This document shows, piece by piece, positions 10,271 to 48,413 of a stretch of 51,135 nt of DNA. The stretch is from Candidatus Dojkabacteria bacterium (GTDB lineage: Bacteria > Patescibacteriota > Dojkabacteria > SC72), in the NCBI GenBank assembly GCA_050950145.1, contig JBMNHB010000001.1, positions 1 to 51,135 of the forward strand, written 5' to 3'. Below the pieces are notes generated by a model that was not told where the DNA came from, ran no database searches, and saw nothing but the letters and a program-made list of their open reading frames with translations. Numbering within the stretch: position 1 is the first letter of the stretch; the number at the start of each line of letters is the position of its first letter. Position numbers and translations under genes: made by a program.

Positions 10271-10284
10271 AAATCTATTTAATA

Positions 10285-14834: not shown

Positions 14835-14841
14835 AAATAAT

Positions 14842-15406: not shown

Positions 15407-15458
15407 TACTGTTTTGTGATATAGTGCGAATTACGATTTTAATTAATTAACAGAAAAA

Positions 15459-16325
15459 ATGTTTTCTTGGATCTGGACAAATGTACTTTATAATCCAATT
15501 TTTAATATCTCTATTTCCCTTTACCATATATTGGGAGACAACTTAGGACTTGCGATCATAATTGTCGCAATTATCTTCAGATTACTTCTTCTTCCTCTGG
15601 TTAAAAACCAAATGGAAATGACTAGAAAGATGGCTGCTTTAAAGCCACAATTAGATGAATTACAGAAAAAATACGGCAACAACAAAGAGAAATTAGCACA
15701 AGAGCAGATGAAATTGTATAAAAAAGCAAAATATAACCCATTAGGTTGCTTAGGTTCCTTTATTCCACAGATTTTAATAATCCTTGTTCTTTTTCAAGTA
15801 ATTAAAAACATTGCAGCAAGTAATTTAAATGGTATTTATCCATTTATTCATGAATGGATTTCAAATGGGCAAGAAATTACGATTAATACAAAATTCCTAG
15901 GACTAGAACTAACTAATATTTTTATGCAGCTAGAAAACAAGTTTAGTGTAGAAGGAATTCCTTACTTAGTAATTGCCCTTCTAACAGGTGTCGCTCAGTA
16001 CTTTACAACAAAGTTTACAAGATTAATGCAAAATCCAGAGTCTAAAAAAGAAGAAAAGAAACCGAAAAAGAAGAAAGACGAGGAAATCTCTCCAGAAGTG
16101 CTTCAGGAAAATATGAATAAATCGTTTGCATTTATGCTTCCTGCAATGACAGCATATTTTGCAATTAAAATGCCAGCATTTCTTGGAATCTATTGGATTG
16201 CACAATCTTTTGCTTTAATTATTCAATACATGGTTTTAGATTGGGATAAAACGAAAAAGGGAGCACAGAACCTGTTATCTATCTTTAAGAAAAAGAGAGA
16301 AATAGAAGAGAAAAAGAACAAGTAG
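15459..16325 (+). CDS. yidC: Membrane protein insertase YidC (short form)
   Basis: It lies in the conserved rnpA-yidD-yidC order. MTRKMAALKPQLDELQKKYGNNKEKLAQEQMKLYKKAKYNPLG is typical. Confidence 0.85.
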   Translation: MFSWIWTNVLYNPIFNISISLYHILGDNLGLAIIIVAIIFRLLLLPLVKNQMEMTRKMAALKPQLDELQKKYGNNKEKLAQEQMKLYKKAKYNPLGCLGSFIPQILIILVLFQVIKNIAASNLNGIYPFIHEWISNGQEITINTKFLGLELTNIFMQLENKFSVEGIPYLVIALLTGVAQYFTTKFTRLMQNPESKKEEKKPKKKKDEEISPEVLQENMNKSFAFMLPAMTAYFAIKMPAFLGIYWIAQSFALIIQYMVLDWDKTKKGAQNLLSIFKKKREIEEKKNK

Positions 16326-16388
16326 GAAGAAAAAAGAAAGAGTTAGGATTGTCCAATGATTTTGAAATAAATTTTAAATATTATCTTT

Positions 16389-16868
16389 ATGAAAGATAAA
16401 GAAATACTTAAATTAGTTGAAGAAGAGATAGAAAAACTATCTTCACTTCTCAATATTGAAAGCGAGAGGTTTGTTGATATAGAGGATGGAGAGGAAGATA
16501 TGAAATATATCAAAGTTAGATTTGAGGGAGAAGATTTGGGATATATGATTGGTAATAGAGGGAGACATTTAGATTCTCTACAATTCATTCTTCAAGTAAT
16601 TTTAGGTAGGAAATTGACAGAAGATGTTAATTTTAGGGTATTTGTTGATGTCGGTGGTTATAGAAAAGAGAAAGATGATAAACTAGAGCAGATAGCATTA
16701 GAGAAGGCAGATAATGCAAGAATATTAGGAGAACCTATTGAATTACCACCAATGAAACCTTCAGATAGAAGAATTATTCATCTAGCACTTATGAAATTTA
16801 AAGATATTTCAACAGAGAGTGTTGGTGAAGGAATGGATAGACACATTGTCATCACCCCTATCAAGTAA
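16389..16868 (+). CDS. jag: Jag/SpoIIIJ-associated KH + R3H RNA-binding protein
   Basis: Position after yidC. It has a KH-like GYMIGNRGRHLDSLQFIL and an R3H motif DRRIIHLAL. Confidence 0.75.
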   Translation: MKDKEILKLVEEEIEKLSSLLNIESERFVDIEDGEEDMKYIKVRFEGEDLGYMIGNRGRHLDSLQFILQVILGRKLTEDVNFRVFVDVGGYRKEKDDKLEQIALEKADNARILGEPIELPPMKPSDRRIIHLALMKFKDISTESVGEGMDRHIVITPIK

Positions 16869-19628: not shown

Positions 19629-21161
19629 ATGCTTACAAAAAAACAGAAACAAGTTTTAGACTTTATATCCTCTTATCACAAGAAAAATGGATATGCCCCC
19701 TCTTTGGAAGAGATACGGAAAAAACTTAAAGTCGCCTCTGTTTCAACAGCTCATTTTCATGTAAAAAATTTGCAGAATTTAGGATTTCTCGGGAAGCAAG
19801 ACAACAGACCAAGATCAATTGGTATTTATGAAAATGAGAAAATGGTAAATATTCCCTTACTCGGATTAATTATAGCTGGTCAACCTATTGAAGCGATACA
19901 AAGTCAAAACAGAGAAACAATCGCCGTTCCAAGAAGTAAAATATCTCTCAATGGTGAATTTTATGCTTTAAGAGTAGTTGGCGACAGCATGATTGATGAA
20001 AACATAAATGACGGCGATTTGGTTTTAGTTAAACAACAAAATACTGCCGAGAATGGACAAAAAGTAGTTGCCCTTCTGGACAACTATGAAGCTACTTTGA
20101 AAAATTTTTATAAAGAAAAAAATTATATAAGATTGCAGTCTGCGAATAAAACAATTGAGCCAATTATTATAAAAAGGAATAGAAAGCTAACAATACAAGG
20201 TATTATTATTGATGTAATAAGAAACGAGAAAGAAATACAAGCTGAAAAACTTTTAGAAAATAATGAAATAAAAAGGAATCAAACACTCCCTTTGAATAAA
20301 ATTATTTTAGGCGACGCCGTAGAAGAATTAAAAAAATTACCAAATGAAAGTTGTGATGTTATTATTATTGATCCCCCATATAATATCGGAAAAGATTTTG
20401 GAAATAACTTGGATAAGCGTGAATTAAAAGAATATGTTGTTTGGTGTAAAGAATGGATAAATGAATCAATTCGAATTATGAAGTCTACTGGAACAATGTT
20501 TGTTTATGGGTTTAGTGAAATACTCGCTTATCTTTCAGTTGAAATTCCGATCAATAAGCGTTGGCTTATTTGGCATTATACAAATAAAAATGTTGCTTCT
20601 CTTAATTTTTGGCAAAGAAGTCACGAGGCTATAATTTGCGCTTGGAAAGATAACCCAATTTTTAATAAAGATAATGTTAGAGAGCCATATACCGAAGGAT
20701 TTTTAAATGGAGCCGCGGGAAAAGTTAGGAAGGGAACTATTGGGAGATTTAGCAGTAGCGGAAAAGAAACAATTTATAATGCTCACGCGGGTGGTGCCTT
20801 GCCTCGTGATGTAATAAAAATACCAGCTTTAGCTGGTGGTGCTGGAATGAATGAAAGGTGGTTTATTTGTAAAACTTGTAAGAATCAAGTTTTTGAACCA
20901 AGAGAATTAAAAAATCACAAAAACCATGAAATAGTTAAACATCCGACACAGAAACCTCTTAAATTATCAAAAAAATTAATATTGTCTGCTATGCCTCAAA
21001 AAGATGGTGTTGTTTTAGTGCCATTTGTTGGTACTGGCTCCGAGTGTGTGGCAGCAAAAGAATTAGGACAATCTTATGTCGGTTTTGAAATAAATCCAGA
21101 TTACATCAAGTTAGCAGAAAAATATATAGAAAAAGCTAAATACACTCCTAGATTATTTTGA
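19629..21161 (+). CDS. Fusion protein: full-length LexA (wHTH + S24 autopeptidase) joined to a beta-class N6A/N4C DNA methyltransferase
   Basis: Residues 1 to about 200 are colinear with LexA: Ala83-Gly84 in LIIAGQP, Ser120 in VGDSM, Lys158 in ATLKNF, ending DVIRN. From about residue 225 onward the sequence is IIIDPPYNIG (motif IV), then HPTQKP and FVGTGSE (motif I). Confidence 0.85.
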   Translation: MLTKKQKQVLDFISSYHKKNGYAPSLEEIRKKLKVASVSTAHFHVKNLQNLGFLGKQDNRPRSIGIYENEKMVNIPLLGLIIAGQPIEAIQSQNRETIAVPRSKISLNGEFYALRVVGDSMIDENINDGDLVLVKQQNTAENGQKVVALLDNYEATLKNFYKEKNYIRLQSANKTIEPIIIKRNRKLTIQGIIIDVIRNEKEIQAEKLLENNEIKRNQTLPLNKIILGDAVEELKKLPNESCDVIIIDPPYNIGKDFGNNLDKRELKEYVVWCKEWINESIRIMKSTGTMFVYGFSEILAYLSVEIPINKRWLIWHYTNKNVASLNFWQRSHEAIICAWKDNPIFNKDNVREPYTEGFLNGAAGKVRKGTIGRFSSSGKETIYNAHAGGALPRDVIKIPALAGGAGMNERWFICKTCKNQVFEPRELKNHKNHEIVKHPTQKPLKLSKKLILSAMPQKDGVVLVPFVGTGSECVAAKELGQSYVGFEINPDYIKLAEKYIEKAKYTPRLF

Positions 21162-21842
21162 TGAATTATCTATTTCTTTTTTCTTAGGCAGAAATGTTTC
21201 TGCTGTAAAAACAACAAAACCATTATCAAATGCCTGTGTTCGCTTGTCTTCTAAAAATCTTAGGTATGGTAATCTAAATTTGCCCTTTTTTGTTTTTGGA
21301 TTAGATAAACAAGTTGGTACTTCGTATTTTATATCTATATTTTCTCCATTATTTTTCTTTTTTCTTGGTAGTGGTACTCTGCTCATTACTCCACTAAAGC
21401 TTGTTTTCTTTACTTGATAATTTAAAATATGATTTTTGTACTTAACTCTTATATCAGCACCCAAGGAATCTAGTTCTCTTGACATACTTACTGTTCCTTT
21501 GCCAAAAACAGACTCGGCAACATAACCACCATGAATTTGGGTTATTAGACTCGCCCAAGTTCTATAAATTCTAGCTTCTATGCCTCGTGCAAAGCAATTC
21601 TGGCACATTGTTATTTTCTTTCTAAATTTTTCAAGCAGTTCCTTTTTTTCTTCCAAGTATCTTTCATAAAAATTTTCAAAAGAAATAAATTTCTTTTCTT
21701 CCCAATAAACTTTATATAAAAGATTAATTGCTTGTATCTCTTTGGGTAAATCCATTTCAACAATCTTAATACTACTATATTTCTTTCTATAGTCTTTTAG
21801 TGGTACTGTTTGTAAAAATTTGTCAAATTTTTCTAAATGCAT
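21153..21842 (-). CDS. Candidate type II restriction endonuclease partner
   Basis: 229-aa ORF converging on the methyltransferase with a 9-bp overlap. GADIRVKYKNHILNYQVKK is a possible D...QxK variant of the PD-(D/E)xK motif. No family was recognised. Confidence 0.4.
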   Translation of the reverse strand: MHLEKFDKFLQTVPLKDYRKKYSSIKIVEMDLPKEIQAINLLYKVYWEEKKFISFENFYERYLEEKKELLEKFRKKITMCQNCFARGIEARIYRTWASLITQIHGGYVAESVFGKGTVSMSRELDSLGADIRVKYKNHILNYQVKKTSFSGVMSRVPLPRKKKNNGENIDIKYEVPTCLSNPKTKKGKFRLPYLRFLEDKRTQAFDNGFVVFTAETFLPKKKEIDNSSK

Positions 21843-22148: not shown

Positions 22149-23942
22149 TTAAAGGACTTCTTTAAACTCTATAAATATTCCTCCTTGTCTTGTAGGGAAG
22201 TACTTTAGATTCTTTGGGAAGCTAGGAGGTTCAAATACTACCTCTGTTTCTTTATCAGAGAATACAAACTCCTTTAGAATTTCCATACCATCTACCCATT
22301 TCTTTCCTTTAATTGCATCTATTACTGTCTGTTTTTCAATCTTTGGTTTAACAGATGCTTTTGCAACTAACTTAATCTTTGTACTTTCTGGAGTATTTTC
22401 AACTACAGTGATTTCTTTTTCAACCTCATCACTTAGTGTTAATTCAAGATTCTTATCTGTTTCAAAAAGATTTTTCTCCTGAGCCTCATTTGTTAAAAGG
22501 TCTGATACCTTTTCATCAAAACCATCTTTCATAAAGAAGGTTGCAGTACTGGCTATTTTAAGATTCAAAGTCACTTCTTTTGCTTCTTCTCCTACCTTTT
22601 TATCAGTCTTTATACTATCTTTTACTTCTTCACTCTTTATTGAATCTCCTATTATTTCCCATGATCCTCCTGATTTATCTTTCAAATCCCTTTCTCCTTC
22701 CTCCATTGCAATCTTCTTTAATTCTTCTACAGCACTATTTACATCAGCTTGAGTAAGAACTGTGTATTGTTCTTTGGAACCTCCTGTAATAGCTTGTGAA
22801 GCTTGTCCTCTCATTTGAGATCCACTATATCCCTGTATTGAAAAAGTTGCACCAGATTGTAAGTTATATTCTTCTCCAATATCATTTGCTGTGATACCAA
22901 CTGTTTTTGTATATTCTTCCCCGCACTTATAGACTAACTGGGCATCAGTCTTAAACACCTTACCACCAGAGGAAATTACAGTATGTCCAGCTTCTAATGT
23001 TACAGGTGGTTTATCGGGACAACCGTCTGTATCTAGATAGTGGATTACAATAGTACCTTTTGCCTTCTCTCCCTTATATGCAGTCCCCGTAGCCTTTATC
23101 GTAGAAGATCTGTCTTTTTCAATAGTCTCTCTCTTTATAGGAATCTTTTCTTCTTCAAAATTAACCTCTTTAATATTTTCATCTCCAGTAAAGATCTTTT
23201 CTATCGATGCCTCTCTTGATTGTACATACATCCTAATTTTTACATATGGAGCAGTTTTATAGTAAATAAATGAACCTAATCCTAAAAGTAATACTAAAGC
23301 AACTCCAATCAGTATTAATAATTTCTTTGATTTTGGACTTAGTTTCTTTCCTTCTCTTTTAAATCTTTCTTTAGACGAAACAGGCAACACTTTTTCTTTT
23401 ATCCCTTTTAAGCTAAAACCTTTTGTTGACTGGTCTTTCTTCTCTTCTTCTTGTACTCCTTCTTTTACTATCACTAGAGGTTCAGGTTCTACAATTTCCT
23501 CCTCTGTTGGTAGGTCTTCATCAATACTAATTCCATGATCTGTTTCAATCGTTTCTATCTCTTCTTTTCTTTCTGTTGGTAATGGCTCCTCTTCTTTAAT
23601 AACTGGCTTTGGTGTTAATCTCTCTGTTCGTTTAACAATCTCCTTTTCCCAGATATCTTCTGTTGGTAGTGTTGTTGTCTCTACTGTTGTAATACCAACA
23701 GTATTAGCATTTTTAACTCCTGTTGGATTTTTAATAATCTGAATAATTAAGTATTTCTCTTGTTCATCTGCAGTTTCTTGTATTACTTTAAGATTTATTG
23801 GACTTATTAGTAAGTCAGAATCCTCTGCAAAAGTTAAAACAATCCTTTCATTAGGAGATTCCAAAATACTTGTAACAATATCTGTTAACTCATCTTCTGT
23901 ATTTACAACGACTTTTGTTATCTTCTTACTCTCTTCTTCCAT
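22149..23942 (-). CDS. Hypothetical single-pass membrane protein (acidic N-terminal part, large extracytoplasmic C-terminal part)
   Basis: 597 aa with a TM helix LLILIGVALVLLLGLGSFIYY at about aa 205-228. The ATG lies 17 nt inside the 3' end of ftsA. Confidence 0.55.
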   Translation of the reverse strand: MEEESKKITKVVVNTEDELTDIVTSILESPNERIVLTFAEDSDLLISPINLKVIQETADEQEKYLIIQIIKNPTGVKNANTVGITTVETTTLPTEDIWEKEIVKRTERLTPKPVIKEEEPLPTERKEEIETIETDHGISIDEDLPTEEEIVEPEPLVIVKEGVQEEEKKDQSTKGFSLKGIKEKVLPVSSKERFKREGKKLSPKSKKLLILIGVALVLLLGLGSFIYYKTAPYVKIRMYVQSREASIEKIFTGDENIKEVNFEEEKIPIKRETIEKDRSSTIKATGTAYKGEKAKGTIVIHYLDTDGCPDKPPVTLEAGHTVISSGGKVFKTDAQLVYKCGEEYTKTVGITANDIGEEYNLQSGATFSIQGYSGSQMRGQASQAITGGSKEQYTVLTQADVNSAVEELKKIAMEEGERDLKDKSGGSWEIIGDSIKSEEVKDSIKTDKKVGEEAKEVTLNLKIASTATFFMKDGFDEKVSDLLTNEAQEKNLFETDKNLELTLSDEVEKEITVVENTPESTKIKLVAKASVKPKIEKQTVIDAIKGKKWVDGMEILKEFVFSDKETEVVFEPPSFPKNLKYFPTRQGGIFIEFKEVL

Positions 23943-25173
23943 TTAAATCTTTCTTGTTAATATCATATATAAATTTTGCTAAGGATGCAGGAGTTATATC
24001 AAATACATTTCTTAGATCTTTACTACTATCTGTAATACTATCTAATTTCTCTGGTGTAAAGAATTCAATCTTAGGAACTACAGCAAAAGGTAGAGATTTT
24101 TTCCATGGGAATTCAAGCATAACTTCTTTGATTTCAGGTAGAAGTGATCCACCACCACAAAGGTATATCTGATTTGGGAATGAAGACACATCACCGCATA
24201 ATGAAAAAGCTGTTTTTAATGTCCTCATCCATAATCTTGCAACAGGATAAACAATCTTTTGTACTTCTCTTGAGAGCTCTTTGTTTAAATCTTTCTTTGC
24301 ATATTTAATCTTTCTCTGTTCCGCTACTCTGTATTCTAGGTTTAAAATTTTAGAAATTTCTTTTGTAAATGTTCTTCCTCCAAATGCAAACATTTTTGTT
24401 TCAACAACATTTCCTTTCTCAACTACTGCAATATCTGTTGTTCCTCCTCCAACATCAACAAAGATGGCAGAAAAATCTCTGTTTGAAGACCCTGCAAAGG
24501 CTCTAGCAACTGCGAAAGGCTGAGAAACGATTCCTAGGACATTGAGTTCTAATTCTCTTGCTACACTGCGTAGAGATTCCACATAGGTTTTTGGAGCAAA
24601 AGATGCATAGTAATTAAGTTTTACATCTTTTCCTTTGTACCCAACTAAAGAATCTACAGGCATTCCACCAATTTCAGTTCCTGTTCTTGTTAAATGTAAT
24701 ATCTCAATATCCTCATTTACTAAACCGATTCTCTGTCCCAAATCTTCTTTACCACTTGTCTCAATCTTTGCTTCTATCTGCACTAATATTTTCTCTTCTT
24801 CTTTTTCTGTTACTTCATCATCAAAATTCTCTTCTCTTTGGTAATTTACAACAATGGAAACACCTTGGATATATTCTCCAGCAATACCCATTACAATATG
24901 TTTTGGATACTCTTCGGGATTTAATCTGTCTGTAAGTGAAGACATTGTTAAGCGACAATTAGCAAGTACTGTATCAAGATTTGTGATGATACCACTTTTC
25001 ATTGCATGTTGTTGCTGTTCTACTCTAGAAACTTTGGAAACATTTACCCCAAACTTATTAACATTAAACAAGACTCCCTTAAGAAGTTCTGTTCCAATAT
25101 CTAAAGCTACAATATTATCTTTAGGGTTTAGTACTGTTTTTGAATTACGTTTTAAAAAAGGCAGATTAAACAT
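23926..25173 (-). CDS. ftsA: Actin-like cell-division ATPase FtsA (PilM not fully excluded)
   Basis: ALDIGTELLKG and DVGGGTTDIAVV phosphate-binding motifs. It is 415 aa with an acidic insert consistent with an SHS2/1C domain. Confidence 0.65.
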   Translation of the reverse strand: MFNLPFLKRNSKTVLNPKDNIVALDIGTELLKGVLFNVNKFGVNVSKVSRVEQQQHAMKSGIITNLDTVLANCRLTMSSLTDRLNPEEYPKHIVMGIAGEYIQGVSIVVNYQREENFDDEVTEKEEEKILVQIEAKIETSGKEDLGQRIGLVNEDIEILHLTRTGTEIGGMPVDSLVGYKGKDVKLNYYASFAPKTYVESLRSVARELELNVLGIVSQPFAVARAFAGSSNRDFSAIFVDVGGGTTDIAVVEKGNVVETKMFAFGGRTFTKEISKILNLEYRVAEQRKIKYAKKDLNKELSREVQKIVYPVARLWMRTLKTAFSLCGDVSSFPNQIYLCGGGSLLPEIKEVMLEFPWKKSLPFAVVPKIEFFTPEKLDSITDSSKDLRNVFDITPASLAKFIYDINKKDLNGRRE

Positions 25174-25239
25174 ACTGTAAGTATATCATATTTAGAGGAA
25201 CACAATATGGTATTTGTTTTTTTTGTAAAGTAGTTTGGA

Positions 25240-25295
25240 AAGGATACCGTATTACATATTTAAATGCGAACATATATATGTTCTACGGTATCCTT
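25240..25295. repeat. Nested inverted repeat: a 12-bp stem enclosing the 16-bp palindrome GAACATATATATGTTC
   Basis: AAGGATACCGTA (25240-25251) pairs with TACGGTATCCTT (25284-25295). The perfect palindrome is at 25268-25283. Confidence 0.8.
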
Positions 25296-25301
25296 CTTGA
25301 A

Positions 25302-26069
25302 TTAAGGTCTAATTTTTCTTTTCTTCTTTTTAATTAAACTTTCAATGTATTTATCTACATCTAAACATCTTGTTTCCATATACTCTTTTAAGCGTTTATA
25401 GTTCTTTTCTCTATAAATACTTCCAAACAACATAGGACGATTACTCCATTTCTCAATTCCTATCTCTTCCAAATATCTTCGTGTGTAGTGTTTTGGAGTA
25501 TAGCCGAAGGCAAGATAATACTTTATCTCATTCATCCAGTCATCAATTCTATTGCGATACTCCTCCCGCCACTTATCCTCATCTTCGTTGTTGTTAAACT
25601 CTCGTTTCATCCGAATTAGTTCTTCAATAGCATCTCTGTCCATTTTCTTAACAGTTTCGTACATACCATTTTTAACACCCGGAGATATTCTAAGACCTGC
25701 AAGTTCAGCAAATTTCGCATGATTCCATATATAACCAAAGTCACTCAAAGGATACATCTTATAAGCATTTACACCCTCATACTGGGTTTCAACAATAAAA
25801 ATTTGTTCCAACATTCTTAAACGACTTTCAACAACATCAATAGCTTCATCCAGACTAACTGTTACTTCCTCATGTTCTTCATCTGAAAAAAACCTGTTTG
25901 CTATCAAATAATCAACAATGGTATCTTCTGTAGTTTGCATAAAACCGATTTTAATCTTTGCAGAACCTGTTTCATTCAGTTTTTTTAGTTTATGCAAACC
26001 TTCTGATATTTTACATAAAGTTTCATGGAGAGCTTTTAAGATCTCCAATCTGTTATCTAAATCTTTCAT
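25302..26069 (-). CDS. Hypothetical protein (orphan cassette gene B)
   Basis: 255 aa with SD GAAGGGG 7 nt before the ATG. It has a basic C-terminal tail (KKKKRKIRP) and no recognisable motif. Confidence 0.6.
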   Translation of the reverse strand: MKDLDNRLEILKALHETLCKISEGLHKLKKLNETGSAKIKIGFMQTTEDTIVDYLIANRFFSDEEHEEVTVSLDEAIDVVESRLRMLEQIFIVETQYEGVNAYKMYPLSDFGYIWNHAKFAELAGLRISPGVKNGMYETVKKMDRDAIEELIRMKREFNNNEDEDKWREEYRNRIDDWMNEIKYYLAFGYTPKHYTRRYLEEIGIEKWSNRPMLFGSIYREKNYKRLKEYMETRCLDVDKYIESLIKKKKRKIRP

Positions 26070-26099
26070 TTCAAACCCCTTCTGCCTTATTAGGACAAT

Positions 26100-26600
26100 C
26101 TAATCATTTGTTTTTGTTAATAAAAGTGTTGGGATTCCATACCCATACTTTCCTTTTTTTACTATCCATCTAAACCCTTTTTCCTTGTTTTCCAATAGTC
26201 TGTAAAGGTATAAGCTTGATGGAGTATCTATTTCCACAGAGAATGGTTCGTTACTCTTCTCTATCTCCCCTGTTGTTATGTCAAACATATTAGGGAAAAT
26301 TCTACCAAATAGAGGGTCTATTGGTATTAGGCATTCGTAATCATCCCCTCCAATTGTTATAAGTTCAACACCTCTCCTTATCTGAAAGAAGAATTCTTGA
26401 TCTTCTGTTTTTATCAACATTTTTTCATAAAATCTTGATAAACAATCGATTTGTTCAATGTTTTCTTGATGTTTTCTGTGCGGTTTGTAACTCTGTATTA
26501 TATTGTACAGTATAAACCCTCCACAATAATCATTTGTTTCCTCGATTGTTAAGTTACTTCTATTACCTAAAATGTTTGATGCGTATAGTACTTTTTCCAT
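26100..26600 (-). CDS. Hypothetical protein (orphan cassette gene A)
   Basis: 166 aa with SD GAAGGAG 7 nt before the ATG. No recognisable motif. Confidence 0.6.
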   Translation of the reverse strand: MEKVLYASNILGNRSNLTIEETNDYCGGFILYNIIQSYKPHRKHQENIEQIDCLSRFYEKMLIKTEDQEFFFQIRRGVELITIGGDDYECLIPIDPLFGRIFPNMFDITTGEIEKSNEPFSVEIDTPSSLYLYRLLENKEKGFRWIVKKGKYGYGIPTLLLTKTND

Positions 26601-26642
26601 TTCAATCTCCTTCTACCTAATAGGTAATGTAATCTTTTTTGT

Positions 26643-26701
26643 TTAATACCAACACTCAAACACCTAGTAGTATTAACTAGGAATCTCAATGTTGGTATTA
26701 A
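26643..26701 (-). repeat. Nested hairpin in the 5' leader of the orphan cassette
   Basis: TTAATACCAACA (26643-26654) pairs with TGTTGGTATTAA (26690-26701). The inner stem is CCTAGT (26663-26668) with ACTAGG (26676-26681). Confidence 0.7.
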
Positions 26702-26792
26702 CACATATTAAAAGAGTTTAGAAACGAAAAGAAAAATATATAGACCTTAATTTTTAATGAGCAGAATATCTGTATTACTAGATACCTACTAC

Positions 26793-26822
26793 ATTATAAC
26801 ACACTATGGGACTACCAATCAA
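26793..26822 (-). promoter_or_regulatory. Candidate sigma70 promoter for the orphan cassette
   Basis: The reverse strand reads TTGATT (26817-26822), N18, TATAAT (26793-26798), preceded by TGTGT. It begins 5 nt after the rnj stop. Confidence 0.55.
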
Positions 26823-26826
26823 TTGA

Positions 26827-28530
26827 TTAAACAATAGCAATCATAATAATTGGCTCTCTCTCAGTTCTTTTGTAAATAAGCTTACTAAGGCTCTTTTCAA
26901 GCTCTTCTCTTAATTTATCATAATCAACCTTCTTTGCTTTTCCTTGCTGACTTAACCACATCCTGTGTGTATCAAAAATTGTGTTAGTGATCTCCTTAAG
27001 TAAATCTTGCGAGTGTTTGAAATATATAAATCCTCTTGAAAGGAATTTTGGTTTTCCAATAACCTTATGCGTATTAGCACTAAGATTTAGTATTACAGTA
27101 AATATCCCGTATTCTGCAAGTTGTTTTCTATCTTTTAATACCATATCGCCAATATCTCCGACACCCAATCCATCTATTAGAATAGGTTTAGATTCAATCT
27201 TCTTTCCTCTCTTCCAGTATTTACCAGTATATTCCCACATCTGTCCATCATCTGTTAGATGTATATTATTTGGATTAATACCCCATTTTTTAAGATTCTG
27301 TTTATTAAAATATCTAAAAGTTAATGAACCATGAATAGGCATTACATTTCTTGGTTTAATGAACTCTATCATTGCTCGTATATCTTCCTGATTTCCATGT
27401 CCTGTTGAGTGTATTTTCATATTTACAGTATCTTTCATTAACTCTGCACCAAGAGCTATTAATCTATCTGTCATCCTTTCAATGTTTGAAACATTCTCAG
27501 GAATTTCAGAAGAGGACATAATCACTAAATCTCCTTTCTTTATCTTAATACTCTTGTGTTCATTTAATGAAACCCTGTTTAGAACTGCAAATCTTTCTCC
27601 TTGGCTACCTGTACAAAGAATCAAAAGTTGGTTATCTGGATATTTGTTAATATCTTTTTCCTTTATAAAAAGGGAATCTTCTACTTTGATATATCCATTC
27701 TCTCTTGCTATTCTAATTGCCTGATCCAAACTTCTACCTGCAAGTAGTACCTTTCTATTTGTTTTCTTTGCAATTTCAATTAGTGAGTATAGTCTTGTAA
27801 TCAATGATGAAAATGCAGAAACAATAACTCTCCCTTTCTGAGTAGATATAATTTCTAAGAGGTTTTCAGAGACAACTTTTTCTGATGGAGATTTGCCAGG
27901 AACTGTTGCATTTGTACTTTCTATTAGAGCCAAATCAATTCTTCCTCTTAAGCTTTTTAATTTTTCATAATCTGATTGAGGTTCGTTTGCTGGGGTTAGA
28001 TCAAATTTGAAATCTCCAGAGAAGAAAATATTTCCTTTTGGAGATTCTATAAATATTGAAAAAGCGTCAGGAATACTGTGATTAATACCTATGAAAGTAG
28101 CTTTGAAATATTTACCAATGTTTACTTTTGATTTCCTGTCAACGCTAAATATTTTAACTTTTTTTTCTAGTTTGTATTCTTTCATTTTTGCCTCAATGAG
28201 GGATTTTGCAAAACCTCCTGCATAGATAGGAGGGTAGTCTAACTCAGGTAAAATCCATCTTAAAGCTCCAATATGATCTAAATGACCATGTGTTATTAAT
28301 ATGGCCTTTATGTCTTTTTTGTGTTTTCTAAGATATTTTGTATTTGGTATTAGGTAGTCAATCCCGTACATTTCTTGTCCAGGAAATGAGTATCCTGCAT
28401 CTACCATTACAATTTCATCTTTGTATTGAATGAAGTTTGAATTTCTACCAATCTCAGAAGTTCCTGAGAGTGTACATAGTTTAAGAAAATCCTGTTTACC
28501 ACTTCCATTCCTATTATCTCTGTTTTTCAT
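26827..28530 (-). CDS. rnj: Ribonuclease J (metallo-beta-lactamase/beta-CASP)
   Basis: ITHGHLDHIGAL motif, 567 aa, beta-CASP-length architecture. Confidence 0.85.
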   Translation of the reverse strand: MKNRDNRNGSGKQDFLKLCTLSGTSEIGRNSNFIQYKDEIVMVDAGYSFPGQEMYGIDYLIPNTKYLRKHKKDIKAILITHGHLDHIGALRWILPELDYPPIYAGGFAKSLIEAKMKEYKLEKKVKIFSVDRKSKVNIGKYFKATFIGINHSIPDAFSIFIESPKGNIFFSGDFKFDLTPANEPQSDYEKLKSLRGRIDLALIESTNATVPGKSPSEKVVSENLLEIISTQKGRVIVSAFSSLITRLYSLIEIAKKTNRKVLLAGRSLDQAIRIARENGYIKVEDSLFIKEKDINKYPDNQLLILCTGSQGERFAVLNRVSLNEHKSIKIKKGDLVIMSSSEIPENVSNIERMTDRLIALGAELMKDTVNMKIHSTGHGNQEDIRAMIEFIKPRNVMPIHGSLTFRYFNKQNLKKWGINPNNIHLTDDGQMWEYTGKYWKRGKKIESKPILIDGLGVGDIGDMVLKDRKQLAEYGIFTVILNLSANTHKVIGKPKFLSRGFIYFKHSQDLLKEITNTIFDTHRMWLSQQGKAKKVDYDKLREELEKSLSKLIYKRTEREPIIMIAIV

Positions 28531-35759: not shown

Positions 35760-36098
35760 ATGGACAGTACGGACAGTATTACATTACAACGAAAACAATT
35801 TTTTATTGAATCGGTAGCAAGATTTTGTGATAAATGTGGCACTCCTTACACTGTAGATGATCTTAATATCGTCCAGAATACTGGTGCAAGCACGATTATA
35901 CACTTTTCTTGTCATAATTGTAAGGCCAAGCATATTGCAACTTTGGTTTCTCCTCTTGGAGTAACACAGAGAGTGCCATTAAATACAGATTTAGCAGAGA
36001 ATGAACTTCAGAGTTTTTTACAATACAGAACAATTACAGACCAAGAGATTCTAGATGCTTACAATGAACTAAAAGCTGAAAAATTTGTAAAATTTTAA
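35760..36098 (+). CDS. Zinc-ribbon protein of unknown function
   Basis: CDKCGTPY ... CHNCKAKH four-Cys ribbon. Confidence 0.5.
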   Translation: MDSTDSITLQRKQFFIESVARFCDKCGTPYTVDDLNIVQNTGASTIIHFSCHNCKAKHIATLVSPLGVTQRVPLNTDLAENELQSFLQYRTITDQEILDAYNELKAEKFVKF

Positions 36099-39094
36099 TT
36101 AGGAGTATTCCAAATAATTCTGTACTCTGTATCTCTATTTAATTCAAATCTTCCAGATAACTGATTGCTTATTGTATTTAATCCTGCAGAGTTACTTAGA
36201 ACCCAGGTAGGGGGGTAGGAGAGATCTAATTTATATGCATGTTTTCTCTCTCCTGCTTGTTTGAATATGTTTAAGTCTAAAAATATTGTATTTTCCTTCT
36301 GCTCTAATGGAAAATTCATACCTATGCTATCTCTTTCTAGTCTGTAAGAAACTTCAAGACTCTTAATTTCTTTAGATGGGACATTAAACCAACCACCCAA
36401 AACTTTATATCCACTTTCTCGATATACTGCATATTTATTATCTTCCATACCAGATATCTTGAGTATTTGAGCTTCTGCGGGTATGTATATTCTCTGATAG
36501 TTAATATAATCTCCTTGTGGATAAACATTTTCATTGGAAGTATTCTCAACAGTTGCAGTGTATGTAAGATCAATAGTATTTTCATCTTTGATATTTATAG
36601 ATAGCGCTAAATTTTTGTTTAAGTACTGATTAGCTTTGTTTCCTCCCCAATTCCAATCTATTACTATTGGGGCATCATTATATTTACTATCTAAACTTCC
36701 TGCCCAGTTTCTATTGTTAAAGAAGTTAAATGCTTCGTTATTCTTAAATGCAATTTGCAAATGTTTCTCATCTAATGAACTTTGTAGAATATCACTCATG
36801 TCTGCGATCTGTCCTATATCCATGGAAAGTAGTTTCTTAATAATTTCATTTGCTAAGTCTGCAAGGAAAGTTGTTTTCTGGGTTGACCCAGGTGTAAATT
36901 CTCTGTGCATTTGAAAAACTTTTTCATGTAAGTTCTCTCCTGTTATCAATTCATCTTCTCCTGGAACTTCAATTCCACCCCATTTATTAAGTAGTTTTTG
37001 GAAGAAAGTGATGTCTACAGTTATTATTCCATCCACATCATTTCCTTTACCTAAAGCTGAGACAAATTGTTGAGATGCTTCTCTTGTTTCGGAAAGATCA
37101 GGACTCCAGTTTACTAAAGAGAAAAGCCAATCTTTTACACTCAAAGCATTTTGCATAGATTCAGGGGGAGAATATCGTTTTCCTTGAACTCTTAGCGTTC
37201 CATCTGCATTGTATATATCATCAACGAATAATTCTCTTATCTGACCACCCTCTATTCCTATAATTCCGTAACTTGTTAACCATCCACCAGTACTTCTAAT
37301 CTCCGATTCGTTTTGCAAGAGTACAAGGTATCTCTGTCTTTCATTTACTCCAAGAACTTCTGGTAGAAAAGCTGTTGCTTCTCTGTATGTTTGGGTAGCA
37401 ACCTCTGCCTTTTCTACGAAGCTTTTTATTTCCAAAAGTTTATTCTGTGTAAATTTAGGGAATGTATTAACCTCAATATCTTTAAATATTTCATTAGCAA
37501 AGGATATTTTGTAGTTGGCCTCATCTAACATATATCTATTTTGACCTATTTTTTCTAAGTAATCTCTATACTCTCTTGTTGTCGTAGCCACATTATCTTG
37601 AAATGTAACAGCTGGCTTAAAATCTTTAATATATGCGGTTAGGGGATATATGGCCTTTAGAGCTTGTTGCCCACCTTGTACTGCGTTTTGTGTTCCTAGA
37701 AGGATTCTTGAGATATCATTGTAAAATGTTTCTTGCCCAGTTACTGCAAACATCCATGACATATTATCAAAGCTATCAGATACTCTACCTATATTTCTTT
37801 CTATTTTATTTATATTTGCATAATTATTTTCGTTTGTTGTGTCTAATATGGTTTGTGATAGCTCTTTGACTGCAGAGTTAATTACGATTAGTCCAATTGC
37901 AGTCCCTAATATTGGATAGATAACAAAGTAGGAGAAGAGGGTGATCAATACTGCTGTGATTATGCCTTTTACCACTCCTTTCGTAGAAGGTTTAGAACTA
38001 CCTTTGTGTAATTTTATCTTTTTAAACGGTTCAGTTAGGTTATGTATAAATTCACCGAGTTTTGTTTTATTTTCTTTGGTTGTAGGTGCACTCTGAGTTT
38101 TATTAGTATTGTTTGTTGAAATATCCCATGACTTATTTATATTGTCATAGTAAACTTGTATCTGCTCTATCATAGCTTTCTCTAGTGTCATTTGTTGTGT
38201 CCATCCATATTTACTTGCATGAGGTGCTGGTACATATACATCTTGTATAAGGAATTTCTCATCTGGATTGTCAGCAAATTTTATACTCTGTGCTTCAGTA
38301 TTTAATTCTAGGAGCTTGTAAGCTATTGAGAGTGTTGTATAGTCATTTTTATTAGCTAGAGTAATAACTTCTCCTTTTGTTGAATTAGAGAATGTTAGTT
38401 TTAAGATACCGTATGTCGCATCATCTTCCTGTATGAGATTGTGTATATTAAGACCTTCTCCTTTTATTGTAATTTGTCCACCTTGAGTTGCCTCCGATAT
38501 TAATTCATGTACAACAGGGTCTTGAACTTTCTCTATTCCACTACCTATTAATGTACCTACTCTGATTATCCTCGCATTGATATTCGTCTTATCCTTAAAT
38601 TCAGCAACCATTGTCTCGCAATATTTCTGTAATTCAATATTAGAGTAGGGGGAAGGTTTAGATATATTTGCTCCATTTGTTCTATTTGCTAATTCTCTAT
38701 TTAAAGCTAATGAACCAATTAAAGAAAATTTTGCATCATTCTTTTTAATTTGTGTAAGACTTAATTCTAAATATTTTGTTTCTAAAAGGAAATCTTTACT
38801 CTCAAATTCTTCTTGATTTAGCTTATCATTCAATATGTAATATAGATAATCAAATCTTTTAATATTCTTAAAGAGAGATTCGTATCCTTTGAAGTCAAAG
38901 AAATCTACCAATTCTGATCGTTTTAGCTCAGAAATATATTTCCTTGTTTCAGAATTAAATTTATCTATTATGACAACATAACCACCTTGTTCTACTAAAG
39001 TTTTCGCGATTAAATACCCAAGTCTGTTCCCTCCATGTACGAGTATGGTTATAGGTGTGTTACTTTTTACTTTGTTAAATCTTAAGTTACTCAT
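36095..39094 (-). CDS. Fusion of an NAD(P)-binding epimerase-like Rossmann domain, a TM segment and a DUF4012 domain
   Basis: N-terminal ILVHGGNRLGYLIAKTLVEQGGYVVIID, TM at about aa 385-410, and a DUF4012-like RYLVLLQNESEIRSTGGWLTSYG. Confidence 0.55.
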   Translation of the reverse strand: MSNLRFNKVKSNTPITILVHGGNRLGYLIAKTLVEQGGYVVIIDKFNSETRKYISELKRSELVDFFDFKGYESLFKNIKRFDYLYYILNDKLNQEEFESKDFLLETKYLELSLTQIKKNDAKFSLIGSLALNRELANRTNGANISKPSPYSNIELQKYCETMVAEFKDKTNINARIIRVGTLIGSGIEKVQDPVVHELISEATQGGQITIKGEGLNIHNLIQEDDATYGILKLTFSNSTKGEVITLANKNDYTTLSIAYKLLELNTEAQSIKFADNPDEKFLIQDVYVPAPHASKYGWTQQMTLEKAMIEQIQVYYDNINKSWDISTNNTNKTQSAPTTKENKTKLGEFIHNLTEPFKKIKLHKGSSKPSTKGVVKGIITAVLITLFSYFVIYPILGTAIGLIVINSAVKELSQTILDTTNENNYANINKIERNIGRVSDSFDNMSWMFAVTGQETFYNDISRILLGTQNAVQGGQQALKAIYPLTAYIKDFKPAVTFQDNVATTTREYRDYLEKIGQNRYMLDEANYKISFANEIFKDIEVNTFPKFTQNKLLEIKSFVEKAEVATQTYREATAFLPEVLGVNERQRYLVLLQNESEIRSTGGWLTSYGIIGIEGGQIRELFVDDIYNADGTLRVQGKRYSPPESMQNALSVKDWLFSLVNWSPDLSETREASQQFVSALGKGNDVDGIITVDITFFQKLLNKWGGIEVPGEDELITGENLHEKVFQMHREFTPGSTQKTTFLADLANEIIKKLLSMDIGQIADMSDILQSSLDEKHLQIAFKNNEAFNFFNNRNWAGSLDSKYNDAPIVIDWNWGGNKANQYLNKNLALSINIKDENTIDLTYTATVENTSNENVYPQGDYINYQRIYIPAEAQILKISGMEDNKYAVYRESGYKVLGGWFNVPSKEIKSLEVSYRLERDSIGMNFPLEQKENTIFLDLNIFKQAGERKHAYKLDLSYPPTWVLSNSAGLNTISNQLSGRFELNRDTEYRIIWNTPN

Positions 39095-48179: not shown

Positions 48180-48268
48180 GTATGAGTATATAATAGGATA
48201 TTATAGGGGAATTTTCAAAGGGGAGTATTTTTTTGTTTGTAAAGCATCTTTTAAATACTATAAAACCG

Positions 48269-48297
48269 TTGACTTACTAGTATAAATATAGTATACT
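48269..48297 (+). promoter_or_regulatory. Candidate rpoB promoter TTGACT-N17-TATACT
   Basis: The -35 is at 48269-48274 and the -10 at 48292-48297. This would give a leader of about 110 nt. Confidence 0.5.
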
Positions 48298-48413
48298 CCT
48301 CAAAGTCGCTTGATTTTATGATCGTAAAAGTGGTGTTATGTAGGTCTTTTGCGGACTTTTTGGGCATCACTTTATTCAAGTAATATGTTATAACATAACT
48401 AAAAATTTATCCT

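What the first reader, a model, noticed from the sequence alone, without database searches (positions are those of the whole stretch)
25302..26826. Orphan two-gene cassette with its own promoter, long structured leader and duplicated translation-initiation region
Two co-directional ORFs of 166 and 255 aa, with no motif I can recognise, lie between rnj and ftsA. They differ from their neighbours in several ways.
- Both have strong Shine-Dalgarno sites.
- Their initiation regions are nearly identical: CCTATTAGGTAGAAGGAGATTGAAATG and CCTAATAAGGCAGAAGGGGTTTGAAATG.
- A TTGATT-N18-TATAAT promoter starts 5 nt after the rnj stop.
- That promoter would give a leader of about 190 nt containing a nested hairpin at 26643-26701.
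- A second nested hairpin lies just past the 3' end of the cassette, at 25240-25295.
The contrast with the leaderless housekeeping genes nearby suggests an acquired, separately regulated module. It could be a toxin-immunity, defence or phage-derived pair.
Basis: partly seen in the sequence, partly recalled or inferred. Interest (0 to 1): 0.65.

Follow-up and report, generated by a model that had tools for sequence, protein, structure and literature searches.

The report
Portable orphan-gene expression cassette in Dojkabacteria
The two unknown genes between rnj and ftsA are a strain-specific insertion of one member of a small family of self-contained gene cassettes in Dojkabacteria (tiny uncultured CPR bacteria); the cassettes share a promoter and a folded messenger-RNA frame whose two ends can pair, and they carry unrelated genes of unknown function.

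Summary

The organism is a Candidatus Dojkabacteria bacterium. Relatives whose FtsA is 97, 96, 91, 87 and 84% identical all have rnj directly followed by ftsA, 41-59 nt apart. The ~1.6-kb segment is therefore an insertion, not conserved synteny.

The same non-coding frame encloses unrelated orphan ORFs at three other chromosomal sites in other Dojkabacteria. In order, the frame is:
- a sigma-70-type promoter with a conserved CCYATAGTG spacer;
- a hairpin at the start of the transcript;
- a 10-13-nt box complementary to a second box at the stop codon;
- an optional long leader hairpin;
- a small hairpin plus Shine-Dalgarno site;
- a long 3' stem-loop.

The 5'/3' boxes, the pre-SD hairpin and the 3' stem keep their pairing while their sequences change. 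This favours an RNA-level "closed-loop" mRNA.

Homologues of the 255-aa protein occur at three sites and never with the 166-aa ORF, so the two genes are not an obligate pair. A toxin-immunity, defence or phage origin finds no support in PADLOC, PHROGs, IMG/VR or GenBank phages. GC content and codon usage match the host.

The function of the two proteins remains unknown.

The parts
26793..26822 (-). Cassette promoter: -35 TTGATT (26817-26822), 18-nt spacer holding the family-conserved CCCATAGTG, and -10 TATAAT (26793-26798) preceded by TG
   Evidence: Best sigma-70-like match in the region. The CCYATAGTG-N3-TATAAT motif is conserved in every family member.
26765..26786 (-). Stem-loop at the predicted 5' end of the transcript (GUAUCU...AGAUAU), followed by the conserved CTGCTCATTAAAAA
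   Evidence: Folds. It is conserved in the window, L001, L023, L040, L043 and L050. It is truncated in L125, so it is not universal.
26741..26752 (-). 5' complementarity box (IR5) AATTAAGGTCTA. The pyrimidine tract ATTTTTCTTTTC follows at 26726-26737.
   Evidence: Reverse complement of 25300-25311. Paired 10/10 with IR3 in the whole-transcript MFE. The duplex energy is -27.4 kcal/mol against -11.5 +/- 2.8 for shuffles.
26643..26701 (-). Long leader hairpin (25 bp), an optional module of the family
   Evidence: RNAalifold on 6 variants: 10 one-sided changes keep pairing through G-U, and the only disruption is 2 U-U cells at one pair. In the local fold, the SD and AUG are predicted to pair with the pyrimidine tract around this hairpin.
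26598..26624 (-). Translation-initiation module 1: small hairpin CCTA-T-TAGG, SD GAAGGAG, and the ATG of ORF166
   Evidence: An identical module directly precedes the ORF255 homologue P0002 in L001.
26100..26600 (-). ORF166, an orphan protein
   Evidence: Only 98%-identical copies among 5.8 billion proteins. No family hits. AF2 mean pLDDT 33. dN/dS 0.24, but based on about 8 substitutions.
26067..26094 (-). Translation-initiation module 2, the duplicate: hairpin CCT-AATA-AGG, SD AAGGGG, and the ATG of ORF255
   Evidence: The same kind of duplication occurs in L023/L043, before their second ORF.
25302..26069 (-). ORF255, a member of a three-member Dojkabacteria-only protein family (P0001, P0002, P0004). 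Predicted mostly helical, with a K-rich tail.
   Evidence: dN/dS is 0.38 against P0002 over 253 codons. AF2 mean pLDDT 61, and no Foldseek match with E <= 0.001.
25300..25311 (-). 3' complementarity box (IR3) TAGACCTTAATT. It supplies the last codons (..R-P) and the stop codon of ORF255. The purine tract GAAAAGAAAAAT lies at 25312-25323.
25240..25295 (-). Long 3' stem-loop: a 12-bp outer stem with inner mini-hairpins and no U-tract
   Evidence: Fold z = -5.9. Three pairs show double compensatory changes between hairpin types A and B, plus G-U wobbles. It is not a canonical intrinsic terminator (0 found).
25195..26826 (-). Approximate extent of the segment present in the window but absent from relatives. 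There, about 20 nt (CTCCCCCTTTTACAAATAACC) sit between the rnj stop and the ftsA -10 box.
   Evidence: Empty-site sequences and their alignment. The boundaries are not clean and no target-site duplication is seen.
36095..36098 (.). Empty allele of a second cassette site. The 999-aa gene (36095-39094, -) abuts the Zn-ribbon gene (35760-36098, +). In L001/L034 two cassettes lie between the orthologues.
48180..48413 (.). Empty allele of a third cassette site, the ftsK|rpoB intergenic region. L050 carries a variant cassette here.

Best explanation
The segment at about 25195-26826 is a strain-specific insertion. It is one member of a Dojkabacteria-restricted family of self-contained expression cassettes.

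**The shared frame, in order:**
1. A sigma-70-type promoter.
2. A stem-loop at the very 5' end of the transcript.
3. A short box that is complementary to a second box at or near the stop codon of the last ORF. The two ends of the mRNA can therefore pair and close the coding part into a loop.
4. In some members, a long leader hairpin flanked by a pyrimidine tract that can mask the SD and start codon.
5. A small hairpin plus a strong Shine-Dalgarno site.
6. One or two cargo ORFs.
7. A long 3' stem-loop.

**Cargo.** The ORFs are unrelated, lineage-specific orphan genes. They evolve under relaxed purifying selection.

**History of this copy (inferred).** The ancestral cargo was probably the ORF255-family gene placed directly behind the leader, as it is in L001 and L125. 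ORF166 was later stacked in front of it together with a second copy of the hairpin+SD module. That event would explain the duplicated initiation region.

**Shown here:**
- the insertion, with empty and filled alleles;
- the shared frame around unrelated ORFs at four chromosomal sites;
- covariation in the stems and in the 5'/3' boxes;
- the SD-led design in a genome that is almost SD-free and looks leaderless.

**Inferred, not shown:**
- that the frame works at the RNA level, through end protection or processing and control of translation;
- that the promoter is active;
- the mechanism by which cassettes move.

What the two proteins do is not known. My best guess is that they are dispensable accessory functions.
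For: **Insertion**
- rnj and ftsA are adjacent (41-59 nt apart) in contigs from relatives whose FtsA is 97, 96, 91, 87 and 84% identical.
- Only near-identical strains (L007-L012) share the insert.

**Family**
- The same promoter, 5' hairpin, box, 3' box and 3' hairpin surround a range of cargo: a 115-aa ORF, P0002, a 239-aa ORF and its 29%-identical relative, a 56-aa membrane ORF with or without a 309-aa ORF, P0004, and a 127-aa membrane ORF.
- The window itself holds empty alleles of two of those sites.

**Cargo turnover at a single site**
- The SurA-like|M23 site holds ORF56, ORF56+ORF309, or P0004 in different lineages.
- The slot after the 115-aa cassette holds P0002, the 239-aa ORF, or the L049 ORF.

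**RNA-level structure**
- The 3' stem has 3 double-compensatory pairs plus G-U wobbles.
- In the leader hairpin, 10 one-sided changes keep pairing through G-U, and the only disruption is 2 U-U cells at one pair.
- The 5'/3' boxes exist in three different sequences, each complementary to its own partner: TTAAGGTCTA/TAGACCTTAA, TTAAAGTCTAT/ATAGACTTTAG and GACAAAGGTTAT/ATAACCTTTGTC.
- The boxes pair in 8 of 8 whole-transcript MFE folds.
- The pre-SD hairpin changes from GCCT/AGGC to CCCC/GGGG.

**Real genes**
- dN/dS is 0.24-0.51, against 0.03-0.05 for rnj and ftsA.

**SD-led, unlike the host**
-.
Against: - There are no expression data. The promoter, transcript ends and RNA pairing are all predictions.
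- The family is small: about eight distinct cassettes, all from a few related populations. Part of the sequence conservation could be shared ancestry rather than selection.
- Taken singly, the 5'/3' complementarity is modest: 9-12 nt, with shuffle frequencies of 0-66 per 1000. The windows are AT-rich and of low complexity.
- SD masking is predicted only for the five homologous long leaders. It is weaker in L023 and L040 and absent in the short-leader and L050 variants.
- The 5' hairpin is truncated in L125.
- The insertion boundaries are ragged, there is no target duplication, and no recombinase was found, so mobility is inferred from distribution alone.
- The 3' stem-loop lacks a U-tract, so its role as a terminator is unproven.
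Confidence: 0.6

Rival explanations
1. The inverted boxes act on DNA. They would be terminal repeats of a non-autonomous transposon, or crossover sites for an invertase that flips the ORF block relative to the fixed promoter, giving a phase-variable gene switch.
For: - Every cassette has 9-13-bp inverted repeats bracketing its ORFs, with the promoter outside them.
- The cassettes are strain-variable and sit at several sites.
- The core box begins with TTAA and ends with TTAA, which resembles a duplicated target.
Against: - The box sequence differs completely between cassettes that share the same promoter (L050 against the others). A sequence-specific transposase or invertase would not tolerate that, whereas RNA pairing would.
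- Conservation extends well outside the repeats, into the promoter and the 3' hairpin.
- In the stems next to the boxes, G-U-type wobbles occur on the sense strand only.
- All of the roughly 30 contigs show one orientation.
- No recombinase or transposase domain was found among the 37 window proteins scanned against Pfam.
- There is no clean target-site duplication at the rnj|ftsA junctions.
Confidence: 0.12
2. ORF166 and ORF255 form a two-component toxin-antitoxin, toxin-immunity or anti-phage defence system.
For: - Two small co-directional orphan genes lie in an acquired, separately promoted unit.
- The window carries other variable defence-type genes a few kb away, namely a restriction-modification pair at 19629-21842.
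Against: - The pair is not conserved. ORF255 relatives P0002 and P0004 are the only ORF in their cassettes.
- ORF166 has no relatives.
- PADLOC gives no hit. Pfam and NCBIfam give only sub-threshold noise.
- There is no structural match, although the models are of low confidence.
- The other cargo ORFs of the family are unrelated to each other, so the frame is not tied to one function.
Confidence: 0.08
3. The cassette is a phage-derived moron, or a remnant of a Dojkabacteria phage or plasmid, that kept the expression signals of its mobile parent.
For: - Its anatomy is moron-like: inserted between genes that are adjacent in relatives, with its own promoter and 3' stem-loop (criteria as given in PMC2920897).
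- Its translation signals are SD-led, unlike the host's leaderless style.
- ORF255 gives a weak hit to phrog_29992, of unknown function (E = 2e-4).
Against: - No copy of the frame is found in 2.9 million IMG/VR contigs.
- tblastn of either protein finds nothing in 50,697 GenBank phages.
- No phage genes lie nearby.
- GC content and codon usage are those of the host.
- All known copies sit between chromosomal housekeeping genes.
Confidence: 0.15
4. These are ordinary lineage-specific housekeeping genes, and the similar flanks simply reflect a common promoter and terminator style in this genome.
For: - Composition is indistinguishable from the flanks.
- The native rnj|ftsA spacer (CCCCCTTTTACAAAT) resembles the sequence that follows the 3' hairpin in other cassettes (CCCCGTTTTCCAAAT), which hints at generic promoter-region motifs.
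Against: - The genes are absent from five close relatives.
- The window holds exactly one copy of each module in 51 kb, while 45 other genes use neither an SD nor this frame.
- The similarity is not limited to the promoter: the leader upstream of the ATG aligns over about 230 nt, and the 3' module aligns over about 90 nt at 87-88% identity.
Confidence: 0.03

Closest known systems
Phage 'morons' (autonomous promoter-gene-terminator units inserted between adjacent genes; criteria as listed in PMC2920897)
   Same: - Inserted between two genes that are adjacent in relatives.
- Carries its own promoter and a 3' stem-loop.
- Different cargo occupies the same hotspot in different genomes.
- The cargo is dispensable.
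   Different: - It lies in a bacterial chromosome between housekeeping genes, not in a phage or prophage.
- Its GC content equals the host's.
- All members share one elaborate, homologous regulatory frame, which morons do not.
- The 3' stem-loop has no U-tract.
Putative mobile promoters / promoter reuse (Nijveen, Matus-Garcia and van Passel, PMC3575422)
   Same: Highly similar non-coding upstream regions stand in front of non-homologous genes within and between genomes, and the way they move is unknown.
   Different: - The reused unit here is not only the promoter. It is a two-sided frame: promoter, leader and SD on one side, and a complementary box plus stem-loop on the other.
- The two sides co-vary.
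5'-3' UTR pairing in bacterial mRNAs (icaR of Staphylococcus aureus, hbs of Bacillus subtilis) and RNase III processing stems flanking rRNAs and phage T7 mRNAs (cited from my own knowledge, not checked here)
   Same: Sequences at the two ends of one transcript are complementary and could close it into a loop. That pairing could affect stability, processing or ribosome access.
   Different: - Those are single, gene-specific cases.
- Here the end-pairing is a portable property of a cassette family with exchangeable cargo.
- No RNase III cleavage or regulatory effect has been shown for this family.
Integron gene cassettes (attC)
   Same: Single-ORF units with exchangeable cargo, each followed by an imperfect palindromic element whose structure is conserved more than its sequence. 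They occur in tandem arrays, as in L001 and L034.
   Different: - Each unit here has its own promoter and leader.
- No GTTRRRY / RYYYAAC core sites are visible in the 3' stem-loop sequences I read.
- The stems are near-perfect, without the extrahelical bases of attC.
- No integrase was found.
- The cassettes are scattered at several chromosomal sites.
Correia / ERIC-type MITEs that carry promoters and fold into RNase III-cleaved hairpins when transcribed (mentioned in PMC3575422; details from my own knowledge)
   Same: Small repeated elements with inverted repeats that bring promoters and RNA structure to neighbouring genes.
   Different: - In those elements the inverted repeats are the ends of a 100-150-bp element and are constant in sequence.
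- Here the repeats are separated by whole ORFs, and their sequence varies while complementarity is kept.

Membership tests
Phage moron | Inserted between two genes that are adjacent in related genomes | tested here: met
   rnj and ftsA are adjacent in L051-L069.
Phage moron | Resides in a phage or prophage genome | tested here: not met
   The flanks are rnj, ftsA, aminoacyl-tRNA synthetases and the dnaA region. No copy in IMG/VR or GenBank phages.
Phage moron | Own promoter and terminator | tested here: inconclusive
   A strong consensus promoter is present. The 3' stem-loop is stable and co-varies but has no U-tract, and the terminator scan finds none. There are no transcript data.
Phage moron | Base composition different from surroundings | tested here: not met
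   GC is 0.32-0.33 against a window mean of 0.31. Codon-choice z is -0.3 and -0.5.
Putative mobile promoter (PMP) | Highly similar upstream non-coding sequence in front of non-homologous genes | tested here: met
   The region upstream of the ATG aligns across cassettes whose first ORFs are unrelated (ORF166, P0002, ORF56), with a mean column identity of 80%. nhmmer E-values are 1e-13 to 1e-22.
Integron cassette / attC | attC with RYYYAAC...GTTRRRY core sites; promoterless cassette; IntI integrase | tested here: not met
   No such core sites are seen on reading the 3' modules. Every cassette has its own promoter. No integrase domain was found in the window proteins scanned.
MITE / non-autonomous transposon | Terminal inverted repeats of constant sequence at the element ends, plus a target-site duplication | tested here: not met
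   The repeats differ in sequence between members. They lie inside the conserved unit rather than at its ends. No duplication is seen at the rnj|ftsA junctions.
Invertible (phase-variable) DNA segment | Both orientations present in a population; a site-specific recombinase | tested here: inconclusive
   Only one orientation is seen in all assembled contigs, and no recombinase was found in the window proteins scanned. Raw reads could not be examined.
Type II toxin-antitoxin or toxin-immunity pair | The two genes co-occur as a conserved pair | tested here: not met
   P0002 and P0004 occur without any ORF166 relative. ORF166 has no homologues.
Known anti-phage defence systems (PADLOC-DB 2.0) | Match to a defence-protein model | tested here: not met
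   0 families for both proteins at E <= 1.
Known cis-regulatory RNA / riboswitch (Rfam 15) | Match to a curated covariance model at its gathering score | tested here: not met
   Only sub-threshold miRNA-like hairpin hits in 25150-26900. At gathering thresholds the window yields only tmRNA and tRNAs.
mRNA with functional 5'-3' end pairing | Complementarity between the 5' UTR and the 3' end, maintained by covariation | tested here: met
   Three different box sequences are each complementary to their partner. They pair in 8 of 8 whole-transcript MFE folds.
mRNA with functional 5'-3' end pairing | Demonstrated effect of the pairing on stability, processing or translation | not testable with these tools
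   This needs transcript mapping and compensatory mutagenesis.

The most novel reading that the evidence does not exclude
The cassettes are a previously undescribed kind of portable, insulated expression unit in CPR bacteria.

- The mRNA would be closed by pairing of its two ends and capped by stem-loops on both sides.
- The pyrimidine tract next to the 5' box could pair either with the SD and start codon or, at least in the window's cassette, with the 3' end of the message. If so, translation would be licensed only on full-length transcripts.
- This design would let SD-dependent accessory genes be plugged into a genome that otherwise runs on leaderless mRNAs.
- The units would spread between chromosomal sites and lineages by a mechanism that needs no element-encoded recombinase.
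Probability: 0.2. Interest if true: 0.8.

Novelty: new variant of a known kind. Interest (0 to 1): 0.6.

Why it matters
Almost nothing is known about how CPR bacteria such as Dojkabacteria express, regulate or exchange accessory genes.

- **Strain variation.** The family gives a concrete, sequence-defined handle on strain-level gene turnover. There are four insertion sites, each with filled and empty alleles, and the cargo differs at the same site.
- **An unusual mRNA design.** The co-varying 5'/3' end pairing, stem-loops at both ends and an SD-led leader stand out in a genome region where SD sites are rarer than chance.
- **If the RNA model holds.** It would be a natural, portable "expression cassette" with built-in control of stability or translation. 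That is of interest for RNA biology and as a genetic tool for CPR organisms.
- **The cargo.** The carried proteins are a compact set of orphan families that evolve quickly and are dispensable. They are candidates for host-interaction or conflict functions in episymbionts.

Tried and rejected
**Protein function: nothing usable.**
- Sequence-family searches of both proteins gave nothing. I tried Pfam, PHROGs, PADLOC, NCBIfam and PDB sequences.
- The word-indexed search of 5.8 billion proteins found only near-identical copies plus P0002.
- An exhaustive HMMER profile search of 1.84 billion representatives added only P0004, plus a spurious repeat-motif hit, P0005.
- AlphaFold2 models were poor: mean pLDDT 61 for ORF255 and 33 for ORF166. 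Foldseek against the PDB found nothing with E <= 0.001. No function can be read from structure.
- hhalign of the ORF255 family against the 309-aa cargo ORF matched only a 17-residue YLEEIG..W motif (probability 35%), so it is not established homology.
- Pfam found nothing above its curated thresholds for six other cargo or strain-variable ORFs and P0004.

**Known RNA families.** Rfam gave only sub-threshold hairpin look-alikes.

**Phage origin.** Three pattern scans of IMG/VR produced only chance matches, and nhmmer re-screening rejected all 55 loci. tblastn against GenBank phages found nothing.

**Scan noise.** The 18-mer scan of GTDB genomes returned mostly chance hits. Only the Dojkabacteria MAG DATERJ01 was real.

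**Ideas I dropped.**
- On the opposite strand, the conserved spacer CCYATAGTG reads CACTATRGG, which resembles T7/SP6-type promoters. I dismissed this because such a promoter would fire away from the cassette into the antisense of the upstream gene, and no single-subunit RNA polymerase was seen.
- A clean insertion boundary or target-site duplication: none found.
- Recent horizontal spread inferred from flank identity: overall 5'-module identity (72-80%) is not far above that of coding regions (70-75%), so I do not claim it. Only local patches are identical, such as 57 nt shared between the window and L001.
- The extra 171-aa ORF in L063 is not a family member.
- The literature searches found no prior description of this element.
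Full report
**1.

On the minus strand, ORF166 (26100-26600) and ORF255 (25302-26069) lie between an RNase J gene (26827-28530) and an FtsA-like gene (23926-25173). The other features are as follows.
- The promoter TTGATT-N18-TATAAT (26822..26793) is the best sigma-70-like match in the region (10 of 12, TG-extended). It begins at the fifth nucleotide after the rnj stop.
- A transcript starting about 7 nt after the -10 box would have a leader of about 186 nt. That leader folds better than all 200 shuffles (z = -3.8) and holds a 25-bp hairpin at 26643-26701.
- The 3' hairpin at 25240-25295 folds with z = -5.9.
- The two initiation regions match at 23 of 28 aligned positions. Within this window alone that is only marginally unusual.

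The contrast with neighbouring genes is real and strong. Of 45 confidently placed genes, only two have an SD-like motif upstream, and ORF166 is one of them. Random positions give 8%. Nine genes, including rnj and ftsA, have a -10-like hexamer ending 4-12 nt before the start codon, which suggests leaderless mRNAs. Base composition and synonymous codon choice are ordinary for the window.

**2. It is an insertion**

FtsA homologues identify the organism as Candidatus Dojkabacteria. The window's own contig is 748,838 bp. I looked up contigs for FtsA proteins that are 97, 96, 91, 87 and 84% identical (loci L051-L069).
- In every one, rnj is followed directly by ftsA with a 41-59-nt spacer that carries the ftsA -10 box.
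- Only near-identical strains (L007-L012, with ORF166 98% identical) share the insert.
- About 1.63 kb (roughly 25195-26826) therefore replaces some 20 nt of spacer.
- The junctions are ragged, and I see no target-site duplication.

Its second condition, composition like the flanks, is met.

**3. The proteins are true orphans**

- Neither protein hits Pfam, PADLOC, NCBIfam or PDB sequences. ORF255 has one weak PHROG hit of unknown function.
- Among 5.8 billion clustered proteins, ORF166 has only 98% copies. ORF255 has a 99% copy and one 61% relative, P0002.
- An exhaustive profile search of 1.84 billion representatives adds one more relative, P0004 (41% identical), plus a spurious repeat-motif match.
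- AlphaFold2 gives a mostly helical model for ORF255 (mean pLDDT 61) and no usable model for ORF166 (pLDDT 33). Foldseek finds nothing significant.
- The genes are nevertheless real. ORF255 against the P0002 gene gives dN/dS 0.38 over 253 codons (dS 0.67). Other cargo genes give 0.24-0.51, while rnj and ftsA give 0.03-0.05.

**4. The decisive lead is the non-coding frame**

The contig that carries P0002 (L001) has different neighbours and no ORF166. Its P0002 gene is nevertheless preceded by the same promoter, leader hairpin and initiation region as ORF166 in the window, and followed by the same 3' hairpin.

I scanned for the conserved 18-mer, or for the promoter plus the 18-mer, in GTDB genomes and JGI metagenomes. 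I then screened all the loci fetched by that point with nhmmer. This recovered a small family, all from Dojkabacteria.

| Chromosomal site | Loci | Cargo |
|---|---|---|
| rnj / ftsA | window, L007-L012 | ORF166 + ORF255 |
| 1002-aa gene / Zn-ribbon gene | L001-6, L034, L050, L049 | a 115-aa cassette, followed by a second cassette carrying P0002, a 239-aa ORF, or a 29%-identical relative of that ORF |
| SurA-like / M23 peptidase | L040; L023 and L043; L125 | ORF56 alone; ORF56 + ORF309; P0004 alone |
| ftsK / rpoB | L050 | a 127-aa membrane ORF |

The window itself carries the empty alleles of the second and fourth sites.

The ORF255 family therefore appears at three sites and never with an ORF166 relative, which argues against an obligate two-gene system. 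Where two ORFs share a cassette (the window, L023/L043), the small hairpin plus SD module is duplicated before the second ORF. In L040 the second ORF and its module are missing precisely.

**5. Anatomy of the frame and evidence that it acts as RNA**

The order is always the same:
1. A -35 hexamer, the conserved CCYATAGTG spacer and TATAAT.
2. A stem-loop at the transcript start, followed by (C/T)TGCTCNTTAAAAA.
3. The 5' box.
4. An optional pyrimidine tract and long hairpin.
5. A small hairpin and the SD.
6. The ORF or ORFs.
7. The 3' box, which often supplies the stop codon.
8. A long 3' stem-loop.

Covariation supports each structured element.
- **3' stem.** It occurs in two types that differ by two double-compensatory pairs in the outer stem and one in the inner hairpin, plus G-U wobbles.
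- **Leader hairpin.** Ten one-sided changes keep pairing through G-U, and only one pair is broken, in two sequences. G-U pairs are tolerated in RNA on the sense strand but would be A-C mismatches on the other strand.
- **5' and 3' boxes.** They are reverse complements in all eight cassettes. They occur in three different sequences: TTAAGGTCTA/TAGACCTTAA, TTAAAGTCTAT/ATAGACTTTAG and, in L050, GACAAAGGTTAT/ATAACCTTTGTC.
- **The L050 variant.** It keeps the promoter and 5' hairpin but has a different leader hairpin, a different pre-SD hairpin (CCCC/GGGG instead of GCCT/AGGC) and a different 3' stem.
- **Energetics.** The box duplexes are 7-16 kcal/mol more stable than the mean of shuffles. In unconstrained MFE folds of the whole predicted transcripts (458-1560 nt), the two boxes pair with each other in 8 of 8 cases.

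A transposase or invertase site should be constant in sequence. A pairing whose sequence changes while complementarity is kept is what an RNA helix predicts. I therefore favour an mRNA whose ends pair and are capped by stem-loops.

In the five homologous long leaders, the SD and AUG are predicted to pair with the pyrimidine tract next to the 5' box. In the window, that same tract is also complementary to the purine-rich last codons of ORF255. This hints at competition between a masked and an open state. That step is speculation and is not seen in the short-leader or L050 variants.

**6. What it is not**

- **Known RNA family.** No Rfam family matches.
- **Integron cassette.** No attC-type core sites, no integrase, and every unit has its own promoter.
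- **Phage element.** No copy in IMG/VR, and no tblastn match in GenBank phages.
- **Recombinase-encoding element.** No recombinase or transposase domain was found among the window proteins I scanned. Those proteins are origin-region and housekeeping functions: dnaA, dnaN, rnpA, yidC, a sigma-70 factor and aminoacyl-tRNA synthetases.

**7. Comparison with known systems**

- **Phage morons.** The cassette works like one: an autonomous promoter-gene-stem-loop unit dropped between adjacent genes, with hotspots that hold different cargo (criteria in PMC2920897). It fails the membership criteria of phage location and deviant GC.
- **Putative mobile promoters.** It fits the descriptive class (PMC3575422). 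It goes beyond that class because the reused unit is two-sided and its two sides co-vary.
- **End-pairing mRNAs.** From my own knowledge, end pairing recalls icaR and hbs mRNAs and RNase III processing stems. Those are single-gene cases.

I rate the locus as a new variant of a known kind.

**8. Verdict**

| Question | Verdict |
|---|---|
| Observation | Confirmed |
| "Acquired, separately regulated module" | Supported |
| "Toxin-immunity, defence or phage pair" | Not supported |
| Function of the proteins | Unknown |
| Best explanation | Portable closed-loop expression cassette carrying dispensable orphan cargo |
| Confidence in that explanation | About 0.6 |
| Main weaknesses | No expression data, and a small family of related sequences |

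Noticed in passing
window 19629-21842: A 510-aa fusion of a LexA DNA-binding domain, an S24 peptidase and an N6/N4 DNA methylase (19629-21161, +) converges on and overlaps a TaqI-like restriction endonuclease (21153-21842, -). Relatives L059 and L062 go straight from the 580/598-aa gene after ftsA to the Na/Ca exchanger. This restriction-modification pair therefore looks like another strain-specific insertion next to the tRNA genes. A LexA-methylase fusion is unusual and could couple restriction-modification control to self-cleavage.
   Followed up: partly
window, whole (45 genes): SD-like motifs upstream of start codons are rarer than at random positions (2 of 45 against 8%). Many first genes have TATAAT-like boxes 4-12 nt before the ATG. 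This genome region appears to rely largely on leaderless or SD-independent initiation.
   Followed up: partly
window 11398-16868: This is the chromosomal origin neighbourhood: dnaN (11398-12516), dnaA (12971-14407), rnpA, yidC and a KhpB/Jag-like gene. The cumulative GC-skew minimum is not at dnaA but near 28 kb, at the divergent rnj / class-I aminoacyl-tRNA synthetase spacer.
   Followed up: no
window 4810-6368 and 3339-3710: An HTH + M78 (IrrE-like) peptidase protein (5301-6368) overlaps a weak PIN-like ORF (4810-5304). A separate Cro/C1-type HTH protein lies beside the tmRNA gene (3797-4218). These could be toxin-antitoxin, defence or mobile-element remnants.
   Followed up: no
window 22149-23942: A 597-aa protein overlaps the end of ftsA by 17 nt. 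It is conserved in this position in all relatives (580-598 aa) but has no Pfam or NCBIfam hit. It is possibly a divergent division protein specific to this lineage.
   Followed up: no
L063 2519-3034 (-): A relative with 97% FtsA identity carries an extra 171-aa orphan ORF between the aminoacyl-tRNA synthetase and rnj, which other relatives lack. It has none of the cassette signatures. Orphan-gene turnover around rnj therefore also happens by other routes.
   Followed up: yes
L051-L058 about 8150-11248, against L059-L062 about 8230-9180: Downstream of the ftsA operon, close relatives differ. Some have large unannotated ORFs (629-660 aa and 632-848 aa, no Pfam hit), while others have the Na/Ca exchanger directly. 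This is another variable region.
   Followed up: no
window 25300-25311; L001 922-931; L050 about 14250-14262: In four of the nine cargo 3' ends I examined, the ORF reads into the 3' complementarity box and takes its stop codon from it (..R-P-stop in ORF255 and in the 115-aa ORF). The K-rich tail of ORF255 is encoded by the purine tract that is complementary to the leader's pyrimidine tract. Part of the C-terminus may therefore be shaped by RNA pairing rather than by protein function.
   Followed up: partly
window 26598-26655 against L001 1176-1233 and L007: The last 57 nt of the leader are identical between the window and the distantly related L001 cassette. The near-identical strain L007 has a different patch here, one that resembles L023. 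This mosaic pattern suggests gene conversion between cassettes.
   Followed up: partly
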